Shown: one piece after another, positions 1 to 16,363 of the stretch
How positions within the stretch are numbered: position 1 is the stretch's first letter
Layout of the letters: each line of letters opens with the position of its first letter
Origin: a virus
Lineage: Duplodnaviria > Heunggongvirae > Uroviricota > Caudoviricetes
IMG/VR virus record: IMGVR_UViG_2630968766_000008
Location: 1 to 38,909 of that record
Direction: 5' to 3' (one strand)
DNA: 38,909 bases
Made by a program: the position numbers and the translations under genes
The notes under the pieces: model-generated
What the model was told of the DNA's origin: nothing
Databases searched by the model: none
The model's input: only the letters and a program-made list of their open reading frames with translations

Positions 1-1119
1 TCAAATAACCAACTTAACCCATTCCTGACCTCGAGTATCGTTATAGCGATCGGTGGTTGCCTGGACTTTATGTCCTAGTAATGTTTTTGTATCGATACCC
101 TGTGCACGGTACAGCCGTTCTGATAGAGAGCGTTGTTCATGAAATGTTGGCGGAGTTTTTCCTGCTGGTGGAATTATCCCAGCCAGATCCCGTGCTTTGG
201 CAAAGTAGTCGCTCAGGTTGTCTTTACTCATCGGCTTCGGTTGTTTCTGGTGCCGACTATGGATTAGATATGGACTTAATATTCTGTCTCGGCACCCATC
301 AATAACTTCTTTTAACGTTATCCCAATGGCATCACAGCGTAGTGTAAGCGGTAACGCCAGACGCATTCCGGTTTTTCCCTGGGTGATATGCAAGTGTTCG
401 TTCCACACATCTGAAAAACGCATGTGGCAAATGTCATCACGGCGCTGACCAGTAACAATCGCAAGAAGCATTGCGTTACGGATAAAGTGTTTTTCAGGCG
501 TTGCATTGTAAATTTTTTGCCAGTCTTCCATGGTGAGCCTGGCTCTGGTTACTTTAGGGATCGGTTTACGGGTAGCCTCCGGAGGATTCCATCCAGGAGG
601 AACTTCCCCTGCATGCTGTGCTTCTTTATAAATATCAACCCATAATCCACGATTTACTCTCGCTGTGCTGACCATGTCTTTATCCAGCCACTCATCCAGT
701 ATTAATGCAAAGTCTCTTACTTCCAGTTCTTTCAATGGGTGGTTTCCCAGACGGGAAACCAGGTATGCAGCCATTCGGGTTTTTTCTTTGTGAGTTGTAG
801 CTGCAATATCTCCATTTTTCAGTCGCGTGTCCTGTATTTTCAGATATCGATCAACCCATGCCTTTAATCTGATACCCCGACGTTTTGTTGCTGACGGACT
901 TTCATCAATTTTGCGCATGAAATATTCAGCTTCTGCTGCAGCTATTCGCTGATTGGCTGTGGAAGCTATTTTTTCTGCCTTACCTTTGTCTGTTCCGAGT
1001 CCGTGAAATTTTCCAGTCACAGGATTTTTATACTGGTAGTAAACTCTGCCAGTTCTGCGATCAAACTTTTCGTAAAGACCGGCTACGTCAGTGCTGTTTT
1101 TTCGTGGCCTCGGTGACAT
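1..1119 (-). CDS. int: Phage integrase, tyrosine recombinase (lambda Int family)
   Basis: 372-aa ORF whose stop codon is at positions 1-3; C-terminal region has the R...HxxR...Y catalytic layout typical of tyrosine recombinases (..HMRFSDV.., ..LLGHK.., ..TTDRYND..). Sits at the prophage edge next to an Xis-like gene. Confidence 0.9.
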   Translation of the reverse strand: MSPRPRKNSTDVAGLYEKFDRRTGRVYYQYKNPVTGKFHGLGTDKGKAEKIASTANQRIAAAEAEYFMRKIDESPSATKRRGIRLKAWVDRYLKIQDTRLKNGDIAATTHKEKTRMAAYLVSRLGNHPLKELEVRDFALILDEWLDKDMVSTARVNRGLWVDIYKEAQHAGEVPPGWNPPEATRKPIPKVTRARLTMEDWQKIYNATPEKHFIRNAMLLAIVTGQRRDDICHMRFSDVWNEHLHITQGKTGMRLALPLTLRCDAIGITLKEVIDGCRDRILSPYLIHSRHQKQPKPMSKDNLSDYFAKARDLAGIIPPAGKTPPTFHEQRSLSERLYRAQGIDTKTLLGHKVQATTDRYNDTRGQEWVKLVI

Positions 1120-1366
1120 GAGTTAAAATCTCCTTCAGTGCATCATCATCGCCAGTATGAATTTCCGGCGCAATTCCCGTTTCACCAGGCCCAACAAATA
1201 CTGCTCGGCGATCTATCAGCCAACGCCCACGAATTTTTTGTGGCCTTGGAACGATGTATCCTAGTTTTCCGTATTTCACCAGGGTAGTGTTTGTTATTGG
1301 GAGACTGAACCGTTTTGGTTTCCACTCGTCGAGCGTTATCAGGTACTGTTCGCTCATGGCTATCAC
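1088..1366 (-). CDS. xis: Excisionase (Xis-like DNA-binding protein)
   Basis: 92-aa ORF immediately upstream of and overlapping int by 32 nt; small basic protein with YLITLDEW...GRWLIDRRAV motif resembling phage excisionase/AlpA-type HTH. Start could be the second Met (1357). Confidence 0.7.
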   Translation of the reverse strand: MIAMSEQYLITLDEWKPKRFSLPITNTTLVKYGKLGYIVPRPQKIRGRWLIDRRAVFVGPGETGIAPEIHTGDDDALKEILTHVTEATKKQH

Positions 1367-1418: not shown

Positions 1419-3860
1419 TTAAAAATCAGCCTGACTCGGGATCAGTTTTTGCCAGATAACTGAAACGTATTTTGCCTGGTAACGAGCGTCATCAAGTGCA
1501 TTATGGCGCTCACCTTCGAATGGGATAGCAGTTCTGGCATCGAAGTCTATGGCTTTCCCCAGCTCAACGATTGTGCGTACATCGCGATCGTTGCAGTAGC
1601 GCCACGGGCAGGGGATACCCTGTCGTTCGTATGAACGGCGTAAAATCACGTTGTCGAAGTTGGCCCCATTACCCCAGACCTGAACAAAAAATTCACCGGA
1701 GTTTTCGTCGATAAATTCCCGCAATTGCAGTAGTGCATCATCTAACGGGATTTCATCGGTCATAATGGCAGACTGCGCTTCACGTGATTGCTTTAGCCAC
1801 CATTTAATGACGTCACGATCAATGACTCCGCCAGCAGTATCCAGATCGATGGTCTTGCTAAATTCCGGTCCCATATCTCCGGTTTGTGGATCGAAAAATA
1901 TTGCGCCTATTGAGATAATCGGGGCATCTGGATTTTTTCCCATGGTTTCAAGGTCGATCATCAGATGAATCCCCGCTCTGCTGGTGGATGTGAGCTTATG
2001 ATGACCATTCACCTTAATTAAGGGATCTGTCGCCTCGCCAGTTTTATTATCGCTGGCGTGATGCTGATTGCCGCCAGGGTTCTCCTTGTGTGGATGTTCA
2101 GCGCCTTCCATTTCCTCCGGATCATTTTCCTGAACTTCAACCTGATTCTCTTCATCGAATGTTTCCTGGTATGTTGCGTCGCCCATCACCGCGCCACAAT
2201 CAGGGCAGTTGCCGCCACCGCTCTGACCGCAGGCGGTGCAGACTTTTTCCGGTTCCTGTTGCGCTACTGGTTCGGATTGTTTCGTTTCTGGCTCGTTTTG
2301 TAACGCATTTGGGCTGTTTTGTTCCGCTTTTTGGTCGTTCCGTTCCGATTCATGCTGGTTCTGGTTCACAGAATCGCGAGTCTGGATCCCCTTGACCCAT
2401 TTCGGATCATTAGGGTCGCTAATCCCCTCAACAAATTCACCACGCGATACAGCAAGTAACTTATCGGCGTCAGGCTGGCTGATATTGGCTGCCTGCATAA
2501 TTTTGTTTACTTCGTCAGCGGTGACTTTTACTTGGTTAGCGGAACTCACCTGCGACTGAGCATCCAGCGACTGCGCGTTCTGGCAATGTTCAGTTGTATC
2601 CGGTTCCATTGTTTCAGTTGTTGCCTGTTCACCTGCCATTGCGTCAGATGGTTGTGGTTTTTCTTCTTCTGTTTCACGCTCAGTAACCACCTCGCGGTTA
2701 ATTTCTTCCAGGATATCTTTTTCCGGCGTATGCCGGGCAGCTGTGAGAGTTTCCTTGCTGGGGTTCTCGTGATCAGTTTCTGTCAAATAGGCGTTGATAT
2801 ACCCCTGAAGGCGTCCCGGGTAGTGATAAAATTCAGGGTGTGCACTTCGGATAAGTGCAAAAATAGCGGCGCGGGAATAGTCCAGAATACCCGGGGTTGC
2901 ACGAAGTGCTGCGGACCATTCTTTGAACGGACTTTCTTTTTTCAGGACTACTTCTTTTGCGCGACGATAAACGCTGCCCGGAATTTCATAAATATTAAAA
3001 TCCATCGGAAGTGTGGCTGCTGCAATCTCCACATCCAGTGTGTCGAGGGTGTGTACTAAATTCGGATTGCGATCGGTTTTGTTCCCACCGCCAGCATTAG
3101 CACCGGAAGCCGTGCGGGTGATGCGTGAAACACGATTTCCTTTCATCCACTCTTTTGTCAGCAGACCCCGATCAGTGTAGTCAGCGTCCAGGTATGCTTC
3201 GAAAAAAGCAGTTATTAGTCCCAGGTCTGAATTACCAGGATTAGGGAAAACTTTGTCAGTGTCACGAACCAGTTTGTGGAGGTCGCGAATCTCCAGCGAG
3301 TCGAGCAGACTGGTTTTATGCGAAATAGCAAGGGCAGTAACAGCCGGTAGTTCTTCAGCCCGTGCAATGTGTAATGCCTGGAGTTCGTCGCGTGAAACGT
3401 GCGTTACTGGTTTTTCGCTGCCGTGTTGAGCAAGCCAACGAATGGGCAGTTCCTGACCGGAGACAGGCAGAAGCATGCTCTCCTCAATCTCAGTCATGTC
3501 TTCGCCGTTGATGTTGGTATTGTCAGTGCTGGCTGGTTTGTCCTGAACAGAGGGGGAAGGGCCGATAAATGTCATTGTGATGCCATCTTTCCCGCCTTTT
3601 TCATAGCGGTTGCAGAATTCAGTATCAAACACGCCTTCTGGCGGAAGGTCGTCAACAACGGGCAAATTGACGCGGACGGGTTTTTTAAAGTCGTCTTCAT
3701 CATAATCGTTGTCATCCATTGCGGTAATGCAGCGGGAGATTGCAACAGATAATTTTTTTGCTGTAGTCCAGTAAAAACCACCTTTAATTCCCAGGCGTTT
3801 TCTTACTTTGTCATTTTTTGCTTCGCAATATAGTGCAAATTCTTCTTTATCAGTGCTCAT
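1419..3860 (-). CDS. Large early-left protein with C-terminal DnaQ-like (DEDDh) 3'-5' exonuclease domain; sits where the ydfE remnant lies in Qin
   Basis: 813-aa ORF. C-terminal ~180 aa carry exonuclease motifs (MIDLETMG, ...WGNGANFD..., H..ALDDARYQAKY). A central CTACG..CPDCG cysteine pair suggests a zinc knuckle. Follows ydfD in the dic operon. Confidence 0.65.
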   Translation of the reverse strand: MSTDKEEFALYCEAKNDKVRKRLGIKGGFYWTTAKKLSVAISRCITAMDDNDYDEDDFKKPVRVNLPVVDDLPPEGVFDTEFCNRYEKGGKDGITMTFIGPSPSVQDKPASTDNTNINGEDMTEIEESMLLPVSGQELPIRWLAQHGSEKPVTHVSRDELQALHIARAEELPAVTALAISHKTSLLDSLEIRDLHKLVRDTDKVFPNPGNSDLGLITAFFEAYLDADYTDRGLLTKEWMKGNRVSRITRTASGANAGGGNKTDRNPNLVHTLDTLDVEIAAATLPMDFNIYEIPGSVYRRAKEVVLKKESPFKEWSAALRATPGILDYSRAAIFALIRSAHPEFYHYPGRLQGYINAYLTETDHENPSKETLTAARHTPEKDILEEINREVVTERETEEEKPQPSDAMAGEQATTETMEPDTTEHCQNAQSLDAQSQVSSANQVKVTADEVNKIMQAANISQPDADKLLAVSRGEFVEGISDPNDPKWVKGIQTRDSVNQNQHESERNDQKAEQNSPNALQNEPETKQSEPVAQQEPEKVCTACGQSGGGNCPDCGAVMGDATYQETFDEENQVEVQENDPEEMEGAEHPHKENPGGNQHHASDNKTGEATDPLIKVNGHHKLTSTSRAGIHLMIDLETMGKNPDAPIISIGAIFFDPQTGDMGPEFSKTIDLDTAGGVIDRDVIKWWLKQSREAQSAIMTDEIPLDDALLQLREFIDENSGEFFVQVWGNGANFDNVILRRSYERQGIPCPWRYCNDRDVRTIVELGKAIDFDARTAIPFEGERHNALDDARYQAKYVSVIWQKLIPSQADF

Positions 3861-3953: not shown

Positions 3954-4145
3954 TTAAAATCCTGCCGGGATTTCGTTATTATCCTGGTGAATAACTTTAT
4001 CGACCGGATAACAGTTGCCTGGAATTTTCTGTTCGGTTGCTGCTGCCATACATTCCTGCATTGTTCTGTGAACACTGACTGCAATATCAACTGGCTCTCC
4101 GGAAACAAGAAAAACCGTCAGAATAAGTGCAAATACTGGATTCAT
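3954..4145 (-). CDS. ydfD: YdfD-like small lysis protein (63 aa) with N-terminal hydrophobic helix
   Basis: 63-aa ORF (MNPVFALILTVFLVSG...) whose ATG overlaps the dicB stop as ATGA, the same arrangement as dicB-ydfD in the E. coli Qin prophage; size matches YdfD from memory. Confidence 0.6.
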   Translation of the reverse strand: MNPVFALILTVFLVSGEPVDIAVSVHRTMQECMAAATEQKIPGNCYPVDKVIHQDNNEIPAGF

Positions 4146-4330
4146 TGTGCACATCCTTTTGGCATCAGACGTAAACGGGCCAGCATTGAAACAATGCATA
4201 CTTTATTTAATAACTCCCGTTCGTGTTTTCTTTTGTTAATGGCATCTTCAGTAAATACAGGATTACTGATAGTGACACCAATTTCAAAACAACCTTCAGA
4301 CGTATTAACGTTTGGTAATAACGTTTTCAT
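4142..4330 (-). CDS. dicB: Cell division inhibitor DicB (MinC-activating)
   Basis: 62-aa ORF MKTLLPNVNTSEGCFEIGVTISNPVFTEDAINKRKHERELLNKVCIVSMLARLRLMPKGCAQ, nearly identical to my recollection of E. coli K-12 DicB; GAGGG Shine-Dalgarno 8 nt upstream; immediately downstream of the dicF sRNA. Confidence 0.8.
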   Translation of the reverse strand: MKTLLPNVNTSEGCFEIGVTISNPVFTEDAINKRKHERELLNKVCIVSMLARLRLMPKGCAQ

Positions 4331-4499
4331 TATCGCGCCCTCAACAATGAGTTTTGTGATGCGGTGCCTGGTGCCTCCAGGTGACGTTAACCAGTTAACA
4401 ATTAACGCCGGATACAGAGAATCCACCCATAACACTGTTTTTGGTTTTAACTGTTCCGCGTGCGCTTAGCCGCATTCACCGCATCACAAAATTCACTTT

Positions 4500-4557
4500 A
4501 AAAAGGGCGGCAGAGCAGTCACGGAGTAAAACTGATACCGCCAAACGTCACCAGAAA
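4500..4557 (-). ncRNA. dicF: DicF small RNA (ftsZ translational inhibitor) including its intrinsic terminator
   Basis: Reverse complement of 4500-4557 reads TTTCTGGTGACGTTTGGCGGTATCAGTTTTACTCCGTGACTGCTCTGCCGCCCTTTTT, which matches the DicF sequence as I recall it, ending in a GC-rich hairpin (GGCGG...CCGCC) plus U-run. Lies between ydfC and dicB as in Qin. Confidence 0.75.
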
Positions 4558-5738: not shown

Positions 5739-6146
5739 TTACTGATGTTTGTTACGTTTGCGAGCTTCTAGTAGCTCGGTGAATAGGCGATTAAAATTCT
5801 CAACGCGGGCACGGAGTTCGCTGATTTGTGCTTGCTGCTCTGATTTTGGAAGTGCGCGATACAATCGCAACATCTCCAACTCATCTTCCGATAAGTCTAA
5901 GGCGCTGTTGAGTGCAACTGGTGGATCTGGTGTTTTATCCTCGTCACCAAACAGTATCCAAGTTGGTGAACATTGCAATACCTCAGCCAGGCGATGCAAA
6001 TTTTGCCCGCGCGGGGCTGTATGGTCGCTTTCCCATAGTGAAATTGATGAGCCAGATACGCCAGCGGCTTTGCTTAAATCGTTTTGACTTAAACCAACCT
6101 GTTTGCGTCTTTCTCTAATTCGTTGACCTAAAGTTTTCTCGTTCAT
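5739..6146 (-). CDS. dicA: DicA-like repressor (XRE-family HTH, C2/cI analogue)
   Basis: 135-aa ORF; N-terminal HTH (QRIRERRKQVGLSQNDLSKAAGVSGSSISLWE) and conserved VLQCSPTWILFGDEDK segment as in E. coli DicA; divergent from Cro-like dicC. Confidence 0.85.
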   Translation of the reverse strand: MNEKTLGQRIRERRKQVGLSQNDLSKAAGVSGSSISLWESDHTAPRGQNLHRLAEVLQCSPTWILFGDEDKTPDPPVALNSALDLSEDELEMLRLYRALPKSEQQAQISELRARVENFNRLFTELLEARKRNKHQ

Positions 6147-10551: not shown

Positions 10552-10736
10552 TTATGACCACAATTACCAGAGAACGACTGCTGGAAATGTTTGCGTGAAA
10601 AGGAGAGTTAAGTAAAATCGCCGCGGGTGCTTGAGGCTATCTGCCTCGGGCATGAACACCAACGGCAGATAGAGAAAAGCCCCAGTTAACATTACGCGTC
10701 CGGCAAGACGCTTAACATTAATCTGAGGCTCAATCT

Positions 10737-10949
10737 ATGAACGGCAAATCTAGGTTAGCCTCTTACGTGCCGAAAGGCAAGGAGAAGCAGGCTATGAAGC
10801 AGCAAAAGGCGATGTTAGTCGCCCTGATCGTCATCTGTATTACCGTCATTGTGACGGCACTGGTAACGAGGAAAGACCTCTGCGAGGTACGAATCCGAAC
10901 CGGCCAGACGGAGGTCGCTGTCTTCACAGCTTACGAACCTGAGGAGTAA
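10737..10949 (+). CDS. mok: Mok-like regulatory reading frame (in-frame N-terminal extension of hok)
   Basis: 70-aa ORF sharing stop with hok, as for mokC/hokC in E. coli K-12 (69/50 aa). Confidence 0.5.
   Translation: MNGKSRLASYVPKGKEKQAMKQQKAMLVALIVICITVIVTALVTRKDLCEVRIRTGQTEVAVFTAYEPEE
10794..10949 (+). CDS. hok: Hok/Gef family type I toxin (membrane-depolarising peptide)
   Basis: 51-aa MKQQKAMLVALIVICITVIVTALVTRKDLCEVRIRTGQTEVAVFTAYEPEE, very close to HokC/Gef; AAGGAGAAG Shine-Dalgarno; followed by strong intrinsic terminator. Confidence 0.85.
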   Translation: MKQQKAMLVALIVICITVIVTALVTRKDLCEVRIRTGQTEVAVFTAYEPEE

Positions 10950-13590: not shown

Positions 13591-13620
13591 TTGACCAGAC
13601 ACATTGTCCGGGGCTATATT
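13591..13620 (+). promoter_or_regulatory. Late promoter pR' analogue (Q-modified)
   Basis: TTGACC (13591-13596) - 17/18 nt - TATATT (13615-13620) directly downstream of Q. Confidence 0.5.
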
Positions 13621-13682
13621 CCTCACGCGCCAGCAAAATCTGGCGTCGGGATTAGGAACCCCGGATTGAGACCGCGACAGAT

Positions 13683-13706
13683 ACACGCCGCGAGCGTGTT
13701 TTTTAT
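13683..13706 (+). terminator. tR'-like intrinsic terminator of the short late leader RNA
   Basis: ACACGCCGCGAGCGTGT hairpin followed by TTTTTTATT, ~80 nt downstream of the putative pR'. Confidence 0.5.
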
Positions 13707-13867
13707 TGTCGTATGCACGCGCACATCTGAATTATGGTGGGGCGTATGGGGGAGCTGAAAGGCTCGCCGGTTGGTTTCCCGGTAGTTCCTAACCCTGTAC
13801 GTCTCACCACCCGATGATTAGGAACCTGACGGTGGTGATAGTTTAGAAACCACTAGAGGGCGTCATT

Positions 13868-14431
13868 ATGACAACTCAAATCTCTGTTGAAACTCTCTCC
13901 CCGATCACCCATAACCAGATTCCTGTAATTACCACTGAACTTTTGGCGCAGCTTTATGGCACCGAAATTCTGAATATCCAGGTTAACTTCACCAGAAACA
14001 AAGAGCGTTTTGTCGCAGGAAAGCACTTTTTTAAAGCAGCGGGTGAGGAATTAAAAAAATTGCGACTTACTTTAAGTAAGTCACAAAATCCCATCTCTCC
14101 CAAAACCCGCTCCCTCATTCTCTGGACAGAACGAGGCGCAGCCCGTCACGCCAAAATGCTCGAGACCGATCAGGCGTGGGATGTGTTCGAAAAACTGGAA
14201 GACTGTTATTTCAGCCAGAAACAGCCACCAGCAGCACAAAACTCCCCCACCGAAAATGATGGATGCGCATTACTGATCCACTTCGATAAACACGGTCAGG
14301 TCGACTTCACGGAAAAAGTACCCGCCGATGCGATGGTATGCACTCTGGAACGGTTTAAATTTTATCTGGAACAACGCGGCTGGATCGTTGCCCGTAAAGA
14401 GCAGCTGGTGGAACGACTGATGCGGCTTTAA
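13868..14431 (+). CDS. ORF6N/antirepressor-like domain protein
   Basis: 187-aa ORF; N-terminal ~100 aa (ITTELLAQLYGTEILNIQVNFTRNKERFVAGKHFF...ILWTERGAARHAKML) resembles the ORF6N/KilA-N-type DNA-binding domain of phage antirepressors. Confidence 0.5.
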   Translation: MTTQISVETLSPITHNQIPVITTELLAQLYGTEILNIQVNFTRNKERFVAGKHFFKAAGEELKKLRLTLSKSQNPISPKTRSLILWTERGAARHAKMLETDQAWDVFEKLEDCYFSQKQPPAAQNSPTENDGCALLIHFDKHGQVDFTEKVPADAMVCTLERFKFYLEQRGWIVARKEQLVERLMRL

Positions 14432-15002: not shown

Positions 15003-16055
15003 ATGGCTAATACTGTAAAAATATCCAGTTGTGAGTTAATCAACGCTGATTGCCTGGAATTTATCCAGACCTTACCGGAAAACTCTGTCGATCTGATAGT
15101 CACAGACCCGCCATACTTTAAAGTGAAGCCCGAGAGCTGGGATAACCAGTGGAAGGGGGACGATGATTACCTGAAATGGCTCGACCAGTGTCTGGCGCAG
15201 TTCTGGCGGGTACTGAAGCCCGCCGGAAGTCTTTACCTGTTCTGTGGTCATCGCCTGGCATCTGACACCGAAATTATGATGCGTGAACGCTTTAATGTGC
15301 TGAATCACATTATCTGGGCGAAGCCGTCAGGACGCTGGAACAGGTGCAACAAGGAAAGCCTGCGGGCGTATTTCCCGGCAACAGAGCGCATTCTGTTTGC
15401 CGAACATTATCAGGGGCCATACCAGCCCAAAAATGACGGCTATGCGGCAAAAGAAAGGGAACTCAAACAGCACATAATGGCACCGCTGATATCGTATTTC
15501 AGGGATGCTCGTGCCGAACTGGGTATAACGGCAAAACAAATTGCCGAAGCCACAGGTAAGAAAAATATGGTTTCCCACTGGTTTGGTGCCAGTCAGTGGC
15601 AGTTGCCGAATGAGGCTGACTATCGGAAGTTACAGGCACTGTTTTCCCGTATAGCGGCAGAGAAGTTTCAGGAACAACAACTGGAACAACCACACCACCA
15701 GCTGGTGGCATCTTATGATTCACTGAATCGCAAATATTCTGAATTGCTGGATAAGTTTAAATCTCTCCGGCGCTATTTCTCCGTATCAGTCTCCGTGCCT
15801 TATACCGATGTCTGGATGCATAAACCCGTTCAGTTCTACCCGGGTAAACATCCGTGTGAGAAACCGGCGGATATGCTCAGGCAAATAATCAATGCCAGTA
15901 GTCGACCTGGTGATCTGGTTGCTGATTTTTTTATGGGATCCGGTTCCACAATAAAAGCAGCAATGGCGCTGGGGCGTCGGGCCTTAGGTGTTGAGCTTGA
16001 GTCAGAGCGGTTTAACCAGACGGTGAAAGAGGTAAGTGAACTGGTGGGGGAATAA
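15003..16055 (+). CDS. DNA methyltransferase (N6-adenine/N4-cytosine, DPPY catalytic motif)
   Basis: 350-aa ORF; motif IV VTDPPYF near N-terminus and SAM-binding FFMGSGSTIKAA near C-terminus (beta-class arrangement). Confidence 0.85.
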   Translation: MANTVKISSCELINADCLEFIQTLPENSVDLIVTDPPYFKVKPESWDNQWKGDDDYLKWLDQCLAQFWRVLKPAGSLYLFCGHRLASDTEIMMRERFNVLNHIIWAKPSGRWNRCNKESLRAYFPATERILFAEHYQGPYQPKNDGYAAKERELKQHIMAPLISYFRDARAELGITAKQIAEATGKKNMVSHWFGASQWQLPNEADYRKLQALFSRIAAEKFQEQQLEQPHHQLVASYDSLNRKYSELLDKFKSLRRYFSVSVSVPYTDVWMHKPVQFYPGKHPCEKPADMLRQIINASSRPGDLVADFFMGSGSTIKAAMALGRRALGVELESERFNQTVKEVSELVGE

Positions 16056-16105: not shown

Positions 16106-16363
16106 ATGCATTCACACCATCATCAAATATCTATGATCCCACTTACCATGAGTTCACCCATTAAAGGTTTTTCACTGTATGTAGAAAGCGAAGACATGGC
16201 TGTCGCTATAGCTGAGCTTGAAAATGCCTTATCACAGCTCAAGAATGGAGATAAGGCATTCAAAGAAAGTGGCACGCTGGTTGGTAACGTCAGAGCAAGT
16301 TATTGCTATCCTTACCGTCCTCATTGTGCCGCGAAAGGTCTTTATTGGGATGAAGGGGATTAA
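16106..16363 (+). CDS. Hypothetical protein (85 aa)
   Basis: ATG 16106 preceded by GGGAGG (7-nt spacer); stop overlaps the stop of the convergent minus-strand gene (TTAA). Confidence 0.35.
   Translation: MHSHHHQISMIPLTMSSPIKGFSLYVESEDMAVAIAELENALSQLKNGDKAFKESGTLVGNVRASYCYPYRPHCAAKGLYWDEGD

What the first reader, a model, noticed from the sequence alone, without database searches (positions are those of the whole stretch)
1419..3860. Intact 813-aa exonuclease-domain protein where Qin carries only a remnant
The early-left operon ends in a large protein with an unknown N-terminal two-thirds, a central CxxC...CxxC knuckle and a C-terminal DnaQ-like exonuclease domain. No RecT/Erf/Bet-like annealing protein is evident nearby, so its role (recombination, anti-defence, DNA-end processing) is open.
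Basis: partly seen in the sequence, partly recalled or inferred. Interest (0 to 1): 0.4.

Follow-up and report, generated by a model that had tools for sequence, protein, structure and literature searches.

The report
RecE-like protein with swapped exonuclease
This common E. coli prophage gene keeps the large non-catalytic front part of the recombination nuclease RecE but carries a 3'-to-5' exonuclease domain of the phage T4 DexA type in place of RecE's own nuclease and without its partner gene recT; its domains and family are already catalogued, but its function has never been tested.

Summary
The 813-aa ORF (1419-3860, minus strand) is real and intact. It is the last gene of the DicA/DicF/DicB-type early-left operon, directly upstream of xis-int.

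**N-terminus.** The "unknown" N-terminal two-thirds (aa 58-615) is 59% identical to the non-catalytic part of Rac RecE, which includes the CxxC...CxxC knuckle.

**C-terminus.** At codon 615 the similarity to RecE stops sharply. A DexA/Rv2179c-family DEDDh domain follows (PF16473, E=5e-66), with all five catalytic residues intact: D636, E638, D736, H786, D791.

**Association with recT.** In 80 related viral loci:
- all 64 DEDDh-type loci lack recT;
- PD-(D/E)XK-type loci carry a RecT-family gene (7 of 12 Rac-type by tblastn, 1 divergent by Pfam, 4 unchecked).

**Selection and structure.** Every folded module is under purifying selection (dN/dS 0.07-0.18). The N-terminal fold has no structural relatives.

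**Phage context.** The window has no annealing protein and no Gam, but 19 Chi sites (1.8 expected). This matches the published "Tritos" nuclease-only class.

**Qin.** YdfE is the remnant of an allele with the same C-terminal half but an unrelated N-terminus.

**Verdict.** It is most likely a 3'->5' DNA exonuclease made early in lytic growth. Its biological role (helping RecBCD, defence, or something else) is inferred, not shown. The architecture is catalogued but uncharacterised, so interest is moderate.

The parts
1419..3860 (-). Complete 813-aa ORF: a RecE-N::DEDDh chimeric exonuclease
   Evidence: ORF. (domains); 99.8% identical to a gene annotated 'exonuclease' in E. coli strain 165, with >=80% coverage in 1243 of 5426 complete E. 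coli genomes.
2016..3860 (-). aa 1-615: region homologous to the non-catalytic N-terminal ~590 aa of Rac RecE
   Evidence: BLASTP 59% identity, query 58-615 vs RecE 50-591. NF007259 positions 1-603 of 877. DNA homology to RecE+RecT-type loci ends at nt 2017, or 2027 in L080.
3294..3692 (-). aa 57-189: Pfam PF06630 'Exonuc_VIII', a non-catalytic RecE N-terminal domain despite its name
   Evidence: E=3.1e-36.
2667..3860 (-). aa 1-398: confidently folded N-terminal domains (about 1-100 alpha/beta; 110-250 and 258-398 helical) with no structural relatives
   Evidence: AlphaFold2 mean pLDDT 85. Foldseek best E=1.1 against PDB and 0.36 against BFVD. dN/dS 0.07-0.13.
2532..2666 (-). aa 399-443: part of acidic, low-confidence linker 1. 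The left mosaic junction with Tritos-type alleles lies at about codon 444.
   Evidence: pLDDT <50 for 399-440. dN/dS 0.29-0.62, computed over aa 366-443. for the junction.
2253..2531 (-). aa 444-536: 'module D', shared by RecE, the Tritos-type allele and this protein. Two short helices (448-457, 465-472), the rest low confidence.
   Evidence: shared. (structure). dN/dS 0.17-0.18.
2196..2240 (-). CxxC-x7-CxxC Cys knuckle (C541, C544, C552, C555)
   Evidence: Conserved in K-12 RecE and Tritos. Present in only 4 of 38 family representatives. Weak DZR hit, E=0.098.
1968..2195 (-). aa 556-631: acidic linker 2, containing the swap junction at codon ~615
   Evidence: 16 D+E vs 5 K+R. pLDDT <50. dN/dS 0.36-0.69. 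Junction.
1452..1967 (-). aa 632-803: DEDDh 3'-5' exonuclease domain of the DexA/Rv2179c family (PF16473)
   Evidence: E=4.7e-66. (8KEL, T4 DexA). (pLDDT >90 in most blocks). (Foldseek DexA E=1.7e-11, then RNase T). dN/dS 0.07-0.09.
1947..1955 (-). Exo motif I: D636 and E638 (M-I-D-L-E-T)
   Evidence: Invariant in alignment A1 including DexA D7/E9.
1653..1655 (-). Exo motif II: D736 (N-F-D-N)
   Evidence: Aligned with DexA D119 and invariant.
1488..1505 (-). Exo motif III: H786-x4-D791 (H-N-A-L-D-D)
   Evidence: Invariant.
3954..4556 (-). Upstream operon partners: DicF sRNA (4505-4556), DicB (within ORF 4142-4435), DUF1482/YdfD-like (within ORF 3954-4199)
   Evidence: Rfam RF00039, 76.7 bits. 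PF05358 and PF07358. The same order occurs in Qin and in loci L003 and L008-L010.
1..1366 (-). Downstream excisionase (1088-1366) and integrase (1-1119). No recT lies between them and the exonuclease (52-nt gap).
5739..6146 (-). DicA/CI-type HTH repressor at the head of the leftward operon. The only minus-strand promoter-like site is at 5654-5626.

Best explanation
The gene encodes a modular nuclease of the prophage early-left operon.

**Shown**
- Residues 1-615 are the non-catalytic scaffold of Rac RecE: three confidently folded N-terminal domains of unknown function, an acidic linker, a short conserved 'module D' and a Cys knuckle.
- At a sharp junction at codon ~615, RecE's PD-(D/E)XK 5'->3' nuclease is replaced by a DexA/Rv2179c-family DEDDh domain with a complete active site. 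The partner gene recT is absent.
- All folded modules are under purifying selection.

**Inferred from family knowledge**
- The protein is a Mg2+-dependent 3'->5' exonuclease that acts on DNA 3' ends.
- It is produced when the DicA-type repressor is lifted, that is, on induction or infection.
- It cannot perform RecET-type end resection and annealing. Its polarity is opposite to RecE's and it has no annealing partner.

**Proposed, weakest step**
- This phage has no Gam and no annealing protein but many Chi sites, so it depends on host RecBCD-Chi-RecA.
- The enzyme would trim 3' single-stranded tails at phage DNA ends or breaks. That would make them blunt enough for RecBCD to load.
- The shared RecE-type N-terminal scaffold would bring whichever nuclease it carries to the same site or partner.
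For: **Architecture**
- PF16473 at aa 632-803, PF06630 at aa 57-189, 59% identity to RecE over aa 58-615, nothing after.
- Active site intact.
- Fold: top Foldseek hits are T4 DexA (E=1.7e-11), then RNase T bound to DNA. The only PDB sequence hit is DexA.
- DexA is a 3'-5' DNA exonuclease (PMC12153337; T4 record note).

**Swap junction**
- DNA identity of 92-94% to RecE+RecT-type loci ends at nt 2017 (codon 615) in L089, L082 and Rac, and at 2027 in L080.

**Association with recT**
- All 64 DEDDh-type viral loci lack recT. 56 of them have >=2.5 kb of downstream sequence.
- Of 12 PD-(D/E)XK-type loci, 7 carry a Rac-type recT. One of the 5 divergent loci (L080) has a RecT-family gene by Pfam.
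- The same dicB-DUF1482-exo-xis-int order occurs at three integration sites.

**Selection**
- dN/dS is 0.07-0.13 for the N-terminal domains, 0.17-0.18 for module D and 0.07-0.09 for DEDDh.

**Family survey**
- Of 84 long representatives, 14 carry DEDDh, 24 carry the RecE nuclease and 46 carry neither.

**Phage context**
- No SAP or Gam.
- 19 Chi sites, 14 on the + strand, against 1.8 expected.
- This matches the 'Tritos' class of PMC12315714: nuclease +, SAP -, SSB -, anti-RecBCD -, Chi-rich.

**Operon membership**
- No promoter or terminator between dicB and the gene.
Against: - No experiment exists on this protein.
- DnaQ-type 3'-5' exonucleases usually inhibit rather than promote homologous recombination (PMC12315714 citing Lovett 2011).
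- The same paper notes that DnaQ-type genes next to int often co-occur with separate complete Rec modules, and does not count those as Rec genes.
- Stand-alone homologues occupy the same slot next to xis-int without any RecE-like scaffold.
- Chi richness tracks the absence of anti-RecBCD in general, not this nuclease specifically (Table 1 of PMC12315714).
- An E. coli DexA homologue (EcD) was shown to protect against T4, which favours a defence reading for at least part of the family.
- The family founder Rv2179c is described as an exoribonuclease (Pfam name), so an RNA substrate is not excluded.
- The N-terminal scaffold's function is unknown even in RecE (PMC11610958). 'Targeting platform' is therefore conjecture.
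Confidence: 0.5

Rival explanations
1. Defence or superinfection-exclusion nuclease of the HREX type. The DexA-like domain degrades incoming DNA of phages with modified cytosines (T-even phages) while sparing unmodified host and prophage DNA.
For: - PMC12153337 reports that an E. coli DexA homologue, EcD, cleaves 5hmC DNA and T4 genomic DNA but not unmodified dsDNA. It protects cells from T4 even with leaky expression.
- Our domain is in the same family.
- The family is mostly prophage-borne next to int. Prophage ends commonly carry host-benefit genes, which is my own knowledge rather than a tool result.
Against: - The Trp that DexA uses for 5hmC recognition (W152) aligns with Cys756 here. Trp is kept only in some stand-alone ~190-aa homologues, the group that fits the published description of EcD (Ala78 plus Trp).
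- The D90 equivalent is retained (D708), unlike in EcD.
- The gene lies in a repressor-controlled lytic operon with no promoter of its own, so expression in lysogens is doubtful.
- There is no PADLOC match.
- EcD itself (HAK9828821.1) could not be retrieved for direct comparison.
- This reading does not explain the conserved 615-aa RecE scaffold.
Confidence: 0.2
2. Exoribonuclease. Like Rv2179c, RNase T or Orn, the domain trims RNA 3' ends, for example processing or degrading phage or host transcripts and sRNAs of the dicF-dicB operon, or degrading nucleotide or oligonucleotide immune signals (an anti-defence role).
For: - The Pfam family is named for the Rv2179c 3'-5' exoribonuclease.
- Foldseek also finds RNase T, Orn, ERI/3'hExo, REXO2 and the CBASS-associated Cap18.
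- PGAP names many relatives '3'-5' exoribonuclease'.
- The gene lies in the same operon as the sRNA DicF.
Against: - The closest solved relative by sequence and by structure is the DNA exonuclease DexA.
- The domain replaces a DNA nuclease on a RecE scaffold in a DNA-transaction slot.
- DicF maturation is attributed to RNase E and RNase III. This is my own knowledge and was not tested here.
- There is no evidence of any link to signalling nucleotides.
Confidence: 0.12
3. Classical exonuclease VIII (RecE): a 5'->3' dsDNA exonuclease for RecET-type recombination, as the public phage annotations state.
For: - Annotated 'exodeoxyribonuclease VIII' in ON470580.1, ON470612.1 and other records.
- PF06630 and NF007259 match the N-terminal 616 aa.
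Against: - The NF007259 score of 946 is below the 1269 cut-off, and the match stops at model position 603 of 877.
- There is no similarity to the RecE catalytic domain (RecE 592-866; 3H4R).
- The C-terminus is DEDDh instead.
- No recT is present.
- PF06630 is a non-catalytic domain. The exonuclease is the last ~260 aa of RecE (PMC11610958).
Confidence: 0.02
4. Non-functional chimera: an accidental fusion decaying in a cryptic prophage.
For: - Many truncated or IS-disrupted copies exist: ydfE in Qin, an O157:H7 fragment and numerous 'partial' proteins.
- ON470580.1 has the gene split into two CDS.
Against: - The ORF is intact here and at >=80% coverage in 1243 complete E. coli genomes.
- dN/dS is 0.07-0.18 in every folded module, while dS reaches 0.2-0.97.
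- The DEDDh architecture occurs in 14 separate 50%-identity clusters.
- The surrounding window encodes a complete-looking phage.
Confidence: 0.02

Closest known systems
RecE / exonuclease VIII of the Rac prophage (E. coli K-12 b1350; catalytic domain structure 3H4R)
   Same: - Residues 58-615 are 59% identical to RecE 50-591. This span includes PF06630, module D, the CxxC...CxxC knuckle and the acidic linkers.
- Both are early-left operon genes of a lambdoid prophage near xis-int.
- In both, the N-terminal region has unknown function.
   Different: - The catalytic domain is DEDDh (3'->5'), not PD-(D/E)XK (5'->3').
- There is no similarity beyond codon 615.
- No recT follows.
- It scores below the NCBIfam equivalog cut-off.
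T4 DexA (exonuclease A; PDB 8KEL/8KEN)
   Same: - Same Pfam family and fold. DexA is the only PDB sequence hit (E=3e-5) and the top Foldseek hit (E=1.7e-11).
- All DEDDh catalytic residues are conserved.
   Different: - Only ~26% identical.
- DexA is a stand-alone 227-aa protein with extra loops and helices.
- DexA W152 aligns with Cys756 here, and the D169 region cannot be aligned.
- Our domain is the C-terminus of an 813-aa protein in a temperate phage.
EcD / 'HREX' bacterial DexA homologue (PMC12153337)
   Same: - It is an E. coli DexA-family DEDDh exonuclease.
- The stand-alone enterobacterial homologues that fit its description are ~58-60% identical to our domain and are also prophage-borne next to xis-int.
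   Different: - EcD is described as a short protein with Ala78 at the DexA D90 position and a conserved Trp. Ours has D708 and Cys756 and carries a 630-aa N-terminal extension.
- EcD's sequence itself could not be obtained.
Phage Tritos TRITO_27 (823 aa) and its K-12 remnant YdfE (Qin); the 'Tritos' nuclease-only Rec-module class of Zheng et al. 2025 (PMC12315714)
   Same: - Same operon slot: dicF-dicB-ydfD-[gene]-xis-int.
- aa ~444-813 are >=92% identical in module D, the knuckle and the DEDDh domain, and 80% in linker 2.
- The phage-level features match: no SAP, no SSB, no anti-RecBCD, many Chi sites.
   Different: - The first ~245 aa are unrelated in sequence, and aa 263-365 are only ~39% identical.
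- This window has the RecE-type N-terminus, whereas Tritos and YdfE have another type.
- How the paper typed the Tritos nuclease could not be checked, because its supplements are not held.
Rv2179c of M. tuberculosis (founder of PF16473)
   Same: Same Pfam family, above the gathering score.
   Different: - Rv2179c is a stand-alone cellular protein described as an exoribonuclease.
- It was not recovered in PDB sequence or structure searches here, so similarity is distant.

Membership tests
DEDDh (DnaQ-like) 3'-5' exonucleases, Pfam PF16473 (Rv2179c-like / DexA family) | Profile match above the curated gathering score | tested here: met
   222.3 bits against a cut-off of 27, aa 632-803 covering positions 2-177 of the 177-position model.
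DEDDh (DnaQ-like) 3'-5' exonucleases, Pfam PF16473 (Rv2179c-like / DexA family) | Four acidic residues plus His in Exo motifs I-III (D, E, D, H-x4-D) | tested here: met
   D636, E638, D736, H786 and D791 are invariant with DexA D7, E9 and D119 and with 10 homologues.
DEDDh (DnaQ-like) 3'-5' exonucleases, Pfam PF16473 (Rv2179c-like / DexA family) | RNase H-like alpha/beta fold similar to solved members | tested here: met
   AlphaFold2 pLDDT >90 in most blocks of the domain. Foldseek gives DexA E=1.7e-11 with TM (target) 0.64-0.71, and RNase T about 1e-8 to 1e-9.
DEDDh (DnaQ-like) 3'-5' exonucleases, Pfam PF16473 (Rv2179c-like / DexA family) | Metal-dependent 3'->5' exonuclease activity | not testable with these tools
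   Needs an enzyme assay.
RecE / exodeoxyribonuclease VIII (NCBIfam NF007259 equivalog) | Whole-protein score at or above the equivalog cut-off | tested here: not met
   946.1 bits against a cut-off of 1269. The match covers only model positions 1-603 of 877.
RecE / exodeoxyribonuclease VIII (NCBIfam NF007259 equivalog) | C-terminal PD-(D/E)XK 5'->3' nuclease domain (RecE ~606-866, PDB 3H4R) | tested here: not met
   No similarity beyond query aa 615 / RecE 591. 3H4R was found only through RecE-type members of the alignment.
RecE / exodeoxyribonuclease VIII (NCBIfam NF007259 equivalog) | N-terminal PF06630 domain and downstream non-catalytic region | tested here: met
   PF06630 E=3.1e-36. 59% identity over 558 residues.
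RecE / exodeoxyribonuclease VIII (NCBIfam NF007259 equivalog) | Adjacent recT (annealing partner) gene | tested here: not met
   A 52-nt gap leads directly to xis, and no RecT family is present in the window. None of 64 DEDDh-type loci has recT.
HREX (EcD-type 5hmC-recognising exonuclease defence; PMC12153337) | DexA-family catalytic domain with intact active site | tested here: met
HREX (EcD-type 5hmC-recognising exonuclease defence; PMC12153337) | Trp equivalent to DexA W152 (5hmC stacking) | tested here: not met
   This position is Cys756 in the alignment. A Trp (W753) lies 3 residues upstream. Trp is present at this column in stand-alone homologues such as P0095, P0103 and P0117.
HREX (EcD-type 5hmC-recognising exonuclease defence; PMC12153337) | Acidic residue equivalent to DexA D169 | tested here: inconclusive
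   The loop differs in length and MAFFT places A770 there. Acidic residues are nearby, but the alignment is unreliable.
HREX (EcD-type 5hmC-recognising exonuclease defence; PMC12153337) | Loss of the tetramer contact (DexA D90 replaced, as in EcD A78) | tested here: not met
   D708 aligns with D90. The S87 equivalent is P705.
HREX (EcD-type 5hmC-recognising exonuclease defence; PMC12153337) | Protection against T4 and selective cleavage of 5hmC DNA | not testable with these tools
   Needs phage plating and nuclease assays.
'Tritos'-type nuclease-only Rec module of Chi-rich lambdoid phages (Zheng et al. 2025, PMC12315714) | Nuclease gene in the early-left operon with no SAP, SSB or anti-RecBCD gene | tested here: met
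   Pfam scan of all early ORFs. Class definition.
'Tritos'-type nuclease-only Rec module of Chi-rich lambdoid phages (Zheng et al. 2025, PMC12315714) | Many Chi sites, biased to the top strand | tested here: met
   14 on the + strand and 5 on the - strand, against 1.8 expected. None of 100 shuffles reached 19. The published class range is 21/6 to 7/2.
'Tritos'-type nuclease-only Rec module of Chi-rich lambdoid phages (Zheng et al. 2025, PMC12315714) | Homology to the Tritos nuclease itself | tested here: inconclusive
   aa 444-813 are 80-97% identical depending on the module. The first ~245 aa are unrelated.

The most novel reading that the evidence does not exclude
The ~400-aa folded N-terminal region shared with RecE has no structural relatives, and its function is unknown even in RecE. 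It may be a dedicated targeting platform that delivers interchangeable nucleases of opposite polarity to the same DNA structure or host partner. On this reading, the DEDDh version converts a phage from 'bring your own recombinase' (RecE+RecT) to 'feed the host RecBCD-Chi pathway' by blunting 3' tails. It would be the first phage-encoded helper, rather than inhibitor or substitute, of RecBCD.
Probability: 0.15. Interest if true: 0.65.

Novelty: new variant of a known kind. Interest (0 to 1): 0.4.

Why it matters
**An open question becomes testable.** RecE is a workhorse of recombineering, yet the function of its N-terminal ~600 residues is still described as unclear. Here the same scaffold is kept under strong purifying selection while carrying a nuclease of the opposite polarity and no RecT. 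So whatever the scaffold does is independent of RecET chemistry. This natural domain swap is present nearly full-length in about a quarter of complete E. coli genomes, and it gives a direct handle for partner pull-downs, domain-swap genetics and phenotypes in recBCD backgrounds.

**Relevance to phage recombination strategies.** It bears on how Chi-rich lambdoid phages without recombinases use host RecBCD.

**An annotation correction.** 'Exodeoxyribonuclease VIII' is assigned to these genes because of a non-catalytic domain (PF06630), and that label is wrong for their enzymology.

**Limits.** The family, its domains and the nuclease-only phage class are already catalogued, so the finding is useful but not surprising.

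Tried and rejected
- **YdfE direct comparison.** BLASTP against YdfE gave no similarity (E=4.2). The 'Qin remnant' claim had to be re-routed through the Tritos allele.
- **EcD sequence.** I tried to identify EcD (HAK9828821.1) among cluster members of 10 E. coli stand-alone homologues and did not find it. I could only infer from Ala78 plus Trp that it belongs to the ~190-aa stand-alone group.
- **N-terminal fold.** Foldseek against PDB and BFVD gave nothing significant. A profile search of PDB sequences found only RecE's C-terminal domain, through alignment members.
- **PADLOC.** No match for this protein.
- **Alignment-based locus search.** I replaced it with a single-protein query, which returns only close relatives (>=94% identity), so the co-occurrence survey is phylogenetically shallow.
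- **Supplements.** Those of PMC12315714 are not held, so how that paper typed the Tritos nuclease is unknown.
- **Literature searches.** One search was wasted because 'RecE' matched 'receptor', and one query errored.
- **Own promoter.** I looked for a promoter upstream of the gene, which would suggest moron-like expression in lysogens. None was found on the minus strand between 3861 and 5600. The scan is only a consensus match and cannot exclude one.
- **The Cys knuckle as a core feature.** Rejected, because only 4 of 38 family representatives have it.
- **'Neither' group.** I checked 10 of the 46 long representatives that have no detectable nuclease. They had only PF06630 or nothing, plus one RecE-N::RecT fusion. 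Some may be contig-end truncations, which I did not resolve.

Full report
**1. The observation.**
The window has an uninterrupted ORF at 1419..3860 on the minus strand (ATG start, 813 aa). A GAGG ribosome-binding motif lies 9 nt upstream of the start.

The ORF lies 93 nt downstream of a DUF1482/YdfD-like ORF and 52 nt upstream of an excisionase ORF, which is followed by a lambda-type integrase. Upstream on the same strand are DicB (PF05358), the sRNA DicF (RF00039, 4505-4556), a YdfC-like ORF and a DicA/CI-type HTH repressor.

The consensus scan finds no promoter-like site on the minus strand between the repressor region (5654-5626) and the gene. It also finds no convincing terminator between dicB and the gene.

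**2. Domains.**
Pfam places an Rv2179c-like 3'-5' exonuclease domain (PF16473) at aa 632-803 (E=4.7e-66).

The NCBIfam RecE equivalog NF007259 matches aa 1-616 to model positions 1-603 of 877. The score of 946 bits is below the 1269-bit cut-off.

BLASTP against K-12 RecE gives 59% identity over aa 58-615 (RecE 50-591) and nothing afterwards. RecE's exonuclease is its last ~260 residues, and the function of its N-terminal part is stated to be unclear (PMC11610958). PF06630 is thus a non-catalytic domain. The label 'exodeoxyribonuclease VIII' on near-identical genes in public phage records is an annotation carried over from the wrong part of the protein.

**3. The catalytic test.**
I aligned aa 620-813 with T4 DexA and ten homologues. 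D636 and E638 (motif I, MIDLET), D736 (motif II, NFDN), and H786 and D791 (motif III, H-x4-D) are invariant and correspond to DexA D7, E9 and D119.

The only PDB sequence hit is DexA (8KEL). An AlphaFold2 model of aa 441-813 has pLDDT >90 over most of aa 630-810. Its best Foldseek matches are DexA (E=1.7e-11), then RNase T-DNA complexes, the Cas2-DnaQ domain, oligoribonuclease and Cap18. The domain is an intact DEDDh exonuclease whose closest solved relative is a DNA exonuclease.

**4. Anatomy of the rest.**
AlphaFold2 on aa 1-440, using 62 sequences, gives mean pLDDT 85. There are three folded regions: about 1-100 (alpha/beta), 110-250 (helical) and 258-398 (helical). Residues 399-440 are disordered. 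Foldseek finds no significant relative in the PDB (best E=1.1) or in BFVD (best E=0.36). A profile search of PDB sequences finds only RecE's C-terminal domain.

Residues 444-536 ('module D') contain two short helices. Residues 490-626 are low confidence.

The Cys knuckle C541-x2-C544-x7-C552-x2-C555 is real and is shared with K-12 RecE and the Tritos protein. However, it occurs in only 4 of 38 family representatives, so it is an accessory, clade-restricted insert. The two linkers are acidic.

**5. A sharp domain swap linked to recT.**
- At the DNA level the window is 92-94% identical to RecE+RecT-type loci, from upstream of the start codon to nt 2017 (codon 615). Identity ends there in L089, L082 and Rac, and at nt 2027 in L080.
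- Among 80 viral-contig loci encoding close relatives of the N-terminal region, 64 have the DEDDh domain and none of these has recT. 56 of them have at least 2.5 kb of downstream sequence.
- 12 loci have a PD-(D/E)XK domain. Seven carry a Rac-type recT immediately downstream.
- The other five have a divergent PD-(D/E)XK domain. In the one examined (L080), this is a separate DUF3799 ORF followed by a RecT-family gene.
- The order dicB-DUF1482-exonuclease-xis-int, without recT, recurs at three different chromosomal integration sites.
- A second mosaic junction lies at about codon 444. Downstream of it, many E. coli and phage genes share ~93% nucleotide identity while having a different N-terminus.

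**6. Qin.**
K-12 Qin has the same operon: dicA-ydfABC-dicF-dicB-ydfD-ydfE'-IS2-intQ'. YdfE shows no similarity to our protein (E=4.2). It is 99% identical to the first 256 residues of the 823-aa phage Tritos protein. That protein is >=92% identical to ours in module D, the knuckle and the DEDDh domain, 80% identical in linker 2, and unrelated in its first ~245 residues. Qin therefore carries a remnant of the same gene slot and the same C-terminal class, but of an allele with a different N-terminal module.

**7. Is it functional?**
I computed Nei-Gojobori dN/dS against three divergent full-length alleles.
- N-terminal modules: 0.07-0.13. One recombinant block was saturated.
- Module D: 0.17-0.18.
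- DEDDh domain: 0.07-0.09.
- Linkers: 0.29-0.69.

dS varies from about 0.06 to 0.97 between modules, the signature of mosaic recombination.

The gene has >=80% coverage in 1243 of 5426 complete E. coli genomes. An exhaustive search of 1.84 billion cluster representatives finds only 219 relatives of the N-terminal region. Of 84 long representatives, 14 carry DEDDh, 24 carry the RecE nuclease and 46 carry neither by this test. Ten of the 46 were scanned; apart from one RecE-N::RecT fusion they showed only PF06630 or nothing. The chimera is thus an established, selected architecture in a small, mainly enterobacterial prophage family.

**8. Phage context.**
No ORF in the early or lysis regions matches RecT, Erf, Bet, Gam or SSB families. 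The window contains 19 Chi octamers, 14 on the + strand, against 1.8 expected. None of 100 shuffles reached that number.

Zheng et al. 2025 (PMC12315714) define exactly this combination as class B 'Tritos':
- nuclease +;
- SAP -;
- SSB -;
- anti-RecBCD -;
- many top-strand Chi sites.

They argue that such phages use host RecBCD and Chi for recombination-dependent growth. They report DnaQ-like 3'-5' nucleases in lambdoid early-left operons and note that such nucleases usually inhibit recombination. They also remark that DnaQ-type genes close to int often accompany complete Rec modules, and they do not count those as Rec genes.

Consistent with that, stand-alone ~190-aa homologues of our domain sit immediately upstream of xis-int in other lambdoid prophages of Salmonella and E. 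coli.

**9. Mechanism.**
*Shown:* the architecture, the intact active site, selection, the operon position and the exclusive association with absence of recT.

*Inferred from family knowledge:* a metal-dependent 3'->5' exonuclease, most probably on DNA, made early after induction. It is not a RecET-type recombinase, because its polarity is opposite and it has no annealing partner.

*Proposed:* in a Gam-less, Chi-rich phage the enzyme trims 3' tails so that RecBCD can enter phage DNA ends, and the RecE-type scaffold provides the localisation. This last step is conjecture. I give the whole statement 0.5, the enzymology about 0.8 and the RecBCD-helper role about 0.3.

**10. Rivals.**
The main rival is defence. 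PMC12153337 shows that an E. coli DexA homologue, EcD, degrades 5hmC DNA and protects against T4. Several points argue against transferring that result here:
- In our protein, DexA's 5hmC-stacking W152 aligns with Cys756 and the D90 equivalent is retained.
- The stand-alone group, not ours, fits the published description of EcD.
- The gene has no promoter of its own.
- PADLOC has no match.
- EcD itself could not be retrieved.

An RNA substrate or an anti-defence role is possible but unsupported. 'True Exo VIII' and 'decaying chimera' are contradicted.

**11. Novelty.**
The domains, the protein clusters (PHROGs 607, 2082 and 20376; PGAP 'exonuclease'), the DexA family and the nuclease-only, Chi-rich phage class are all already described. 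I did not find the following stated in the papers I could read:
- the explicit RecE-scaffold/DEDDh swap at codon 615;
- its strict anticorrelation with recT;
- the purifying selection on a scaffold with no structural relatives.

I rate it a new variant of a known kind, of moderate interest (0.4). Its main value is as a handle on the long-unexplained RecE N-terminus and as an annotation correction.

Noticed in passing
window, whole; sites listed (e.g. 10236, 11818, 11875, 14404, 14564, 14880, 15701, 19467, 21182, 21622, 21978): Chi (GCTGGTGG) occurs 19 times (14 on +, 5 on -) against 1.8 expected. The sites cluster between about 10 and 22 kb (nin/Q/lysis/terminase region). This fits the 'right-end clustered Chi' pattern published for lambdoid phages that lack anti-RecBCD.
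   Followed up: partly
window 13614-13814 (+) and ORF 13868-14431 (+): Rfam finds isrK, c4-a1b1 and C4 antisense RNA directly upstream of an ORF6N-domain protein, just after the Q antiterminator gene. This looks like a P1/P7-type C4-RNA-controlled antirepressor module inside a lambdoid prophage.
   Followed up: no
window 10625-10799 (+): A sok antitoxin RNA (RF01794, 107 bits) implies a hok/sok type I toxin-antitoxin locus in the nin region, as in Qin (hokD).
   Followed up: no
ON470580.1 (L004 20001-22444) and other phage records: Near-identical genes are annotated 'exodeoxyribonuclease VIII' on the strength of the non-catalytic PF06630 domain. In ON470580.1 the gene is split into two CDS (a 2-nt length difference from the window), which is either a frameshift or a sequencing error.
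   Followed up: partly
protein P0201 (703 aa): One representative has the RecE N-terminal PF06630 region fused directly to a RecT domain (PF03837), with no nuclease domain between them. It is either a natural deletion fusion or an assembly artefact.
   Followed up: no
L080 6830-11036: This variant locus has a RecE-N-type 835-aa ORF with no recognised C-terminal domain. It is followed by a separate 223-aa DUF3799 PD-(D/E)XK ORF (overlapping by 37 nt) and a divergent 350-aa RecT-family gene. It may be a split or frameshifted RecE, or a 'RecE-2'-like arrangement.
   Followed up: partly
window 16360-16884 (-), within the 16-17 kb block: A 174-aa ORF on the opposite strand has no Pfam match. It lies in the lowest-GC block of the window (GC 0.41, against about 0.45-0.61 elsewhere), between the DNA methylase gene and the lysis cassette. 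It could be a moron or accessory gene.
   Followed up: no
window 15003-16055 (+) and 18743-19093 (+): An N6/N4 DNA methylase gene lies upstream of the lysis genes. An HNH endonuclease gene lies immediately before the small terminase gene, which is the HK97-like HNH-assisted packaging arrangement.
   Followed up: no
L091-L096 4743-6570 (Salmonella prophages): The stand-alone DEDDh homologue (189 aa) is preceded by a DndB-like (PF14072) gene and by DUF2303 and YfdP genes, in a KpLE1/CPS-53-like early-left operon. It again sits directly upstream of a xis-like gene and int.
   Followed up: no
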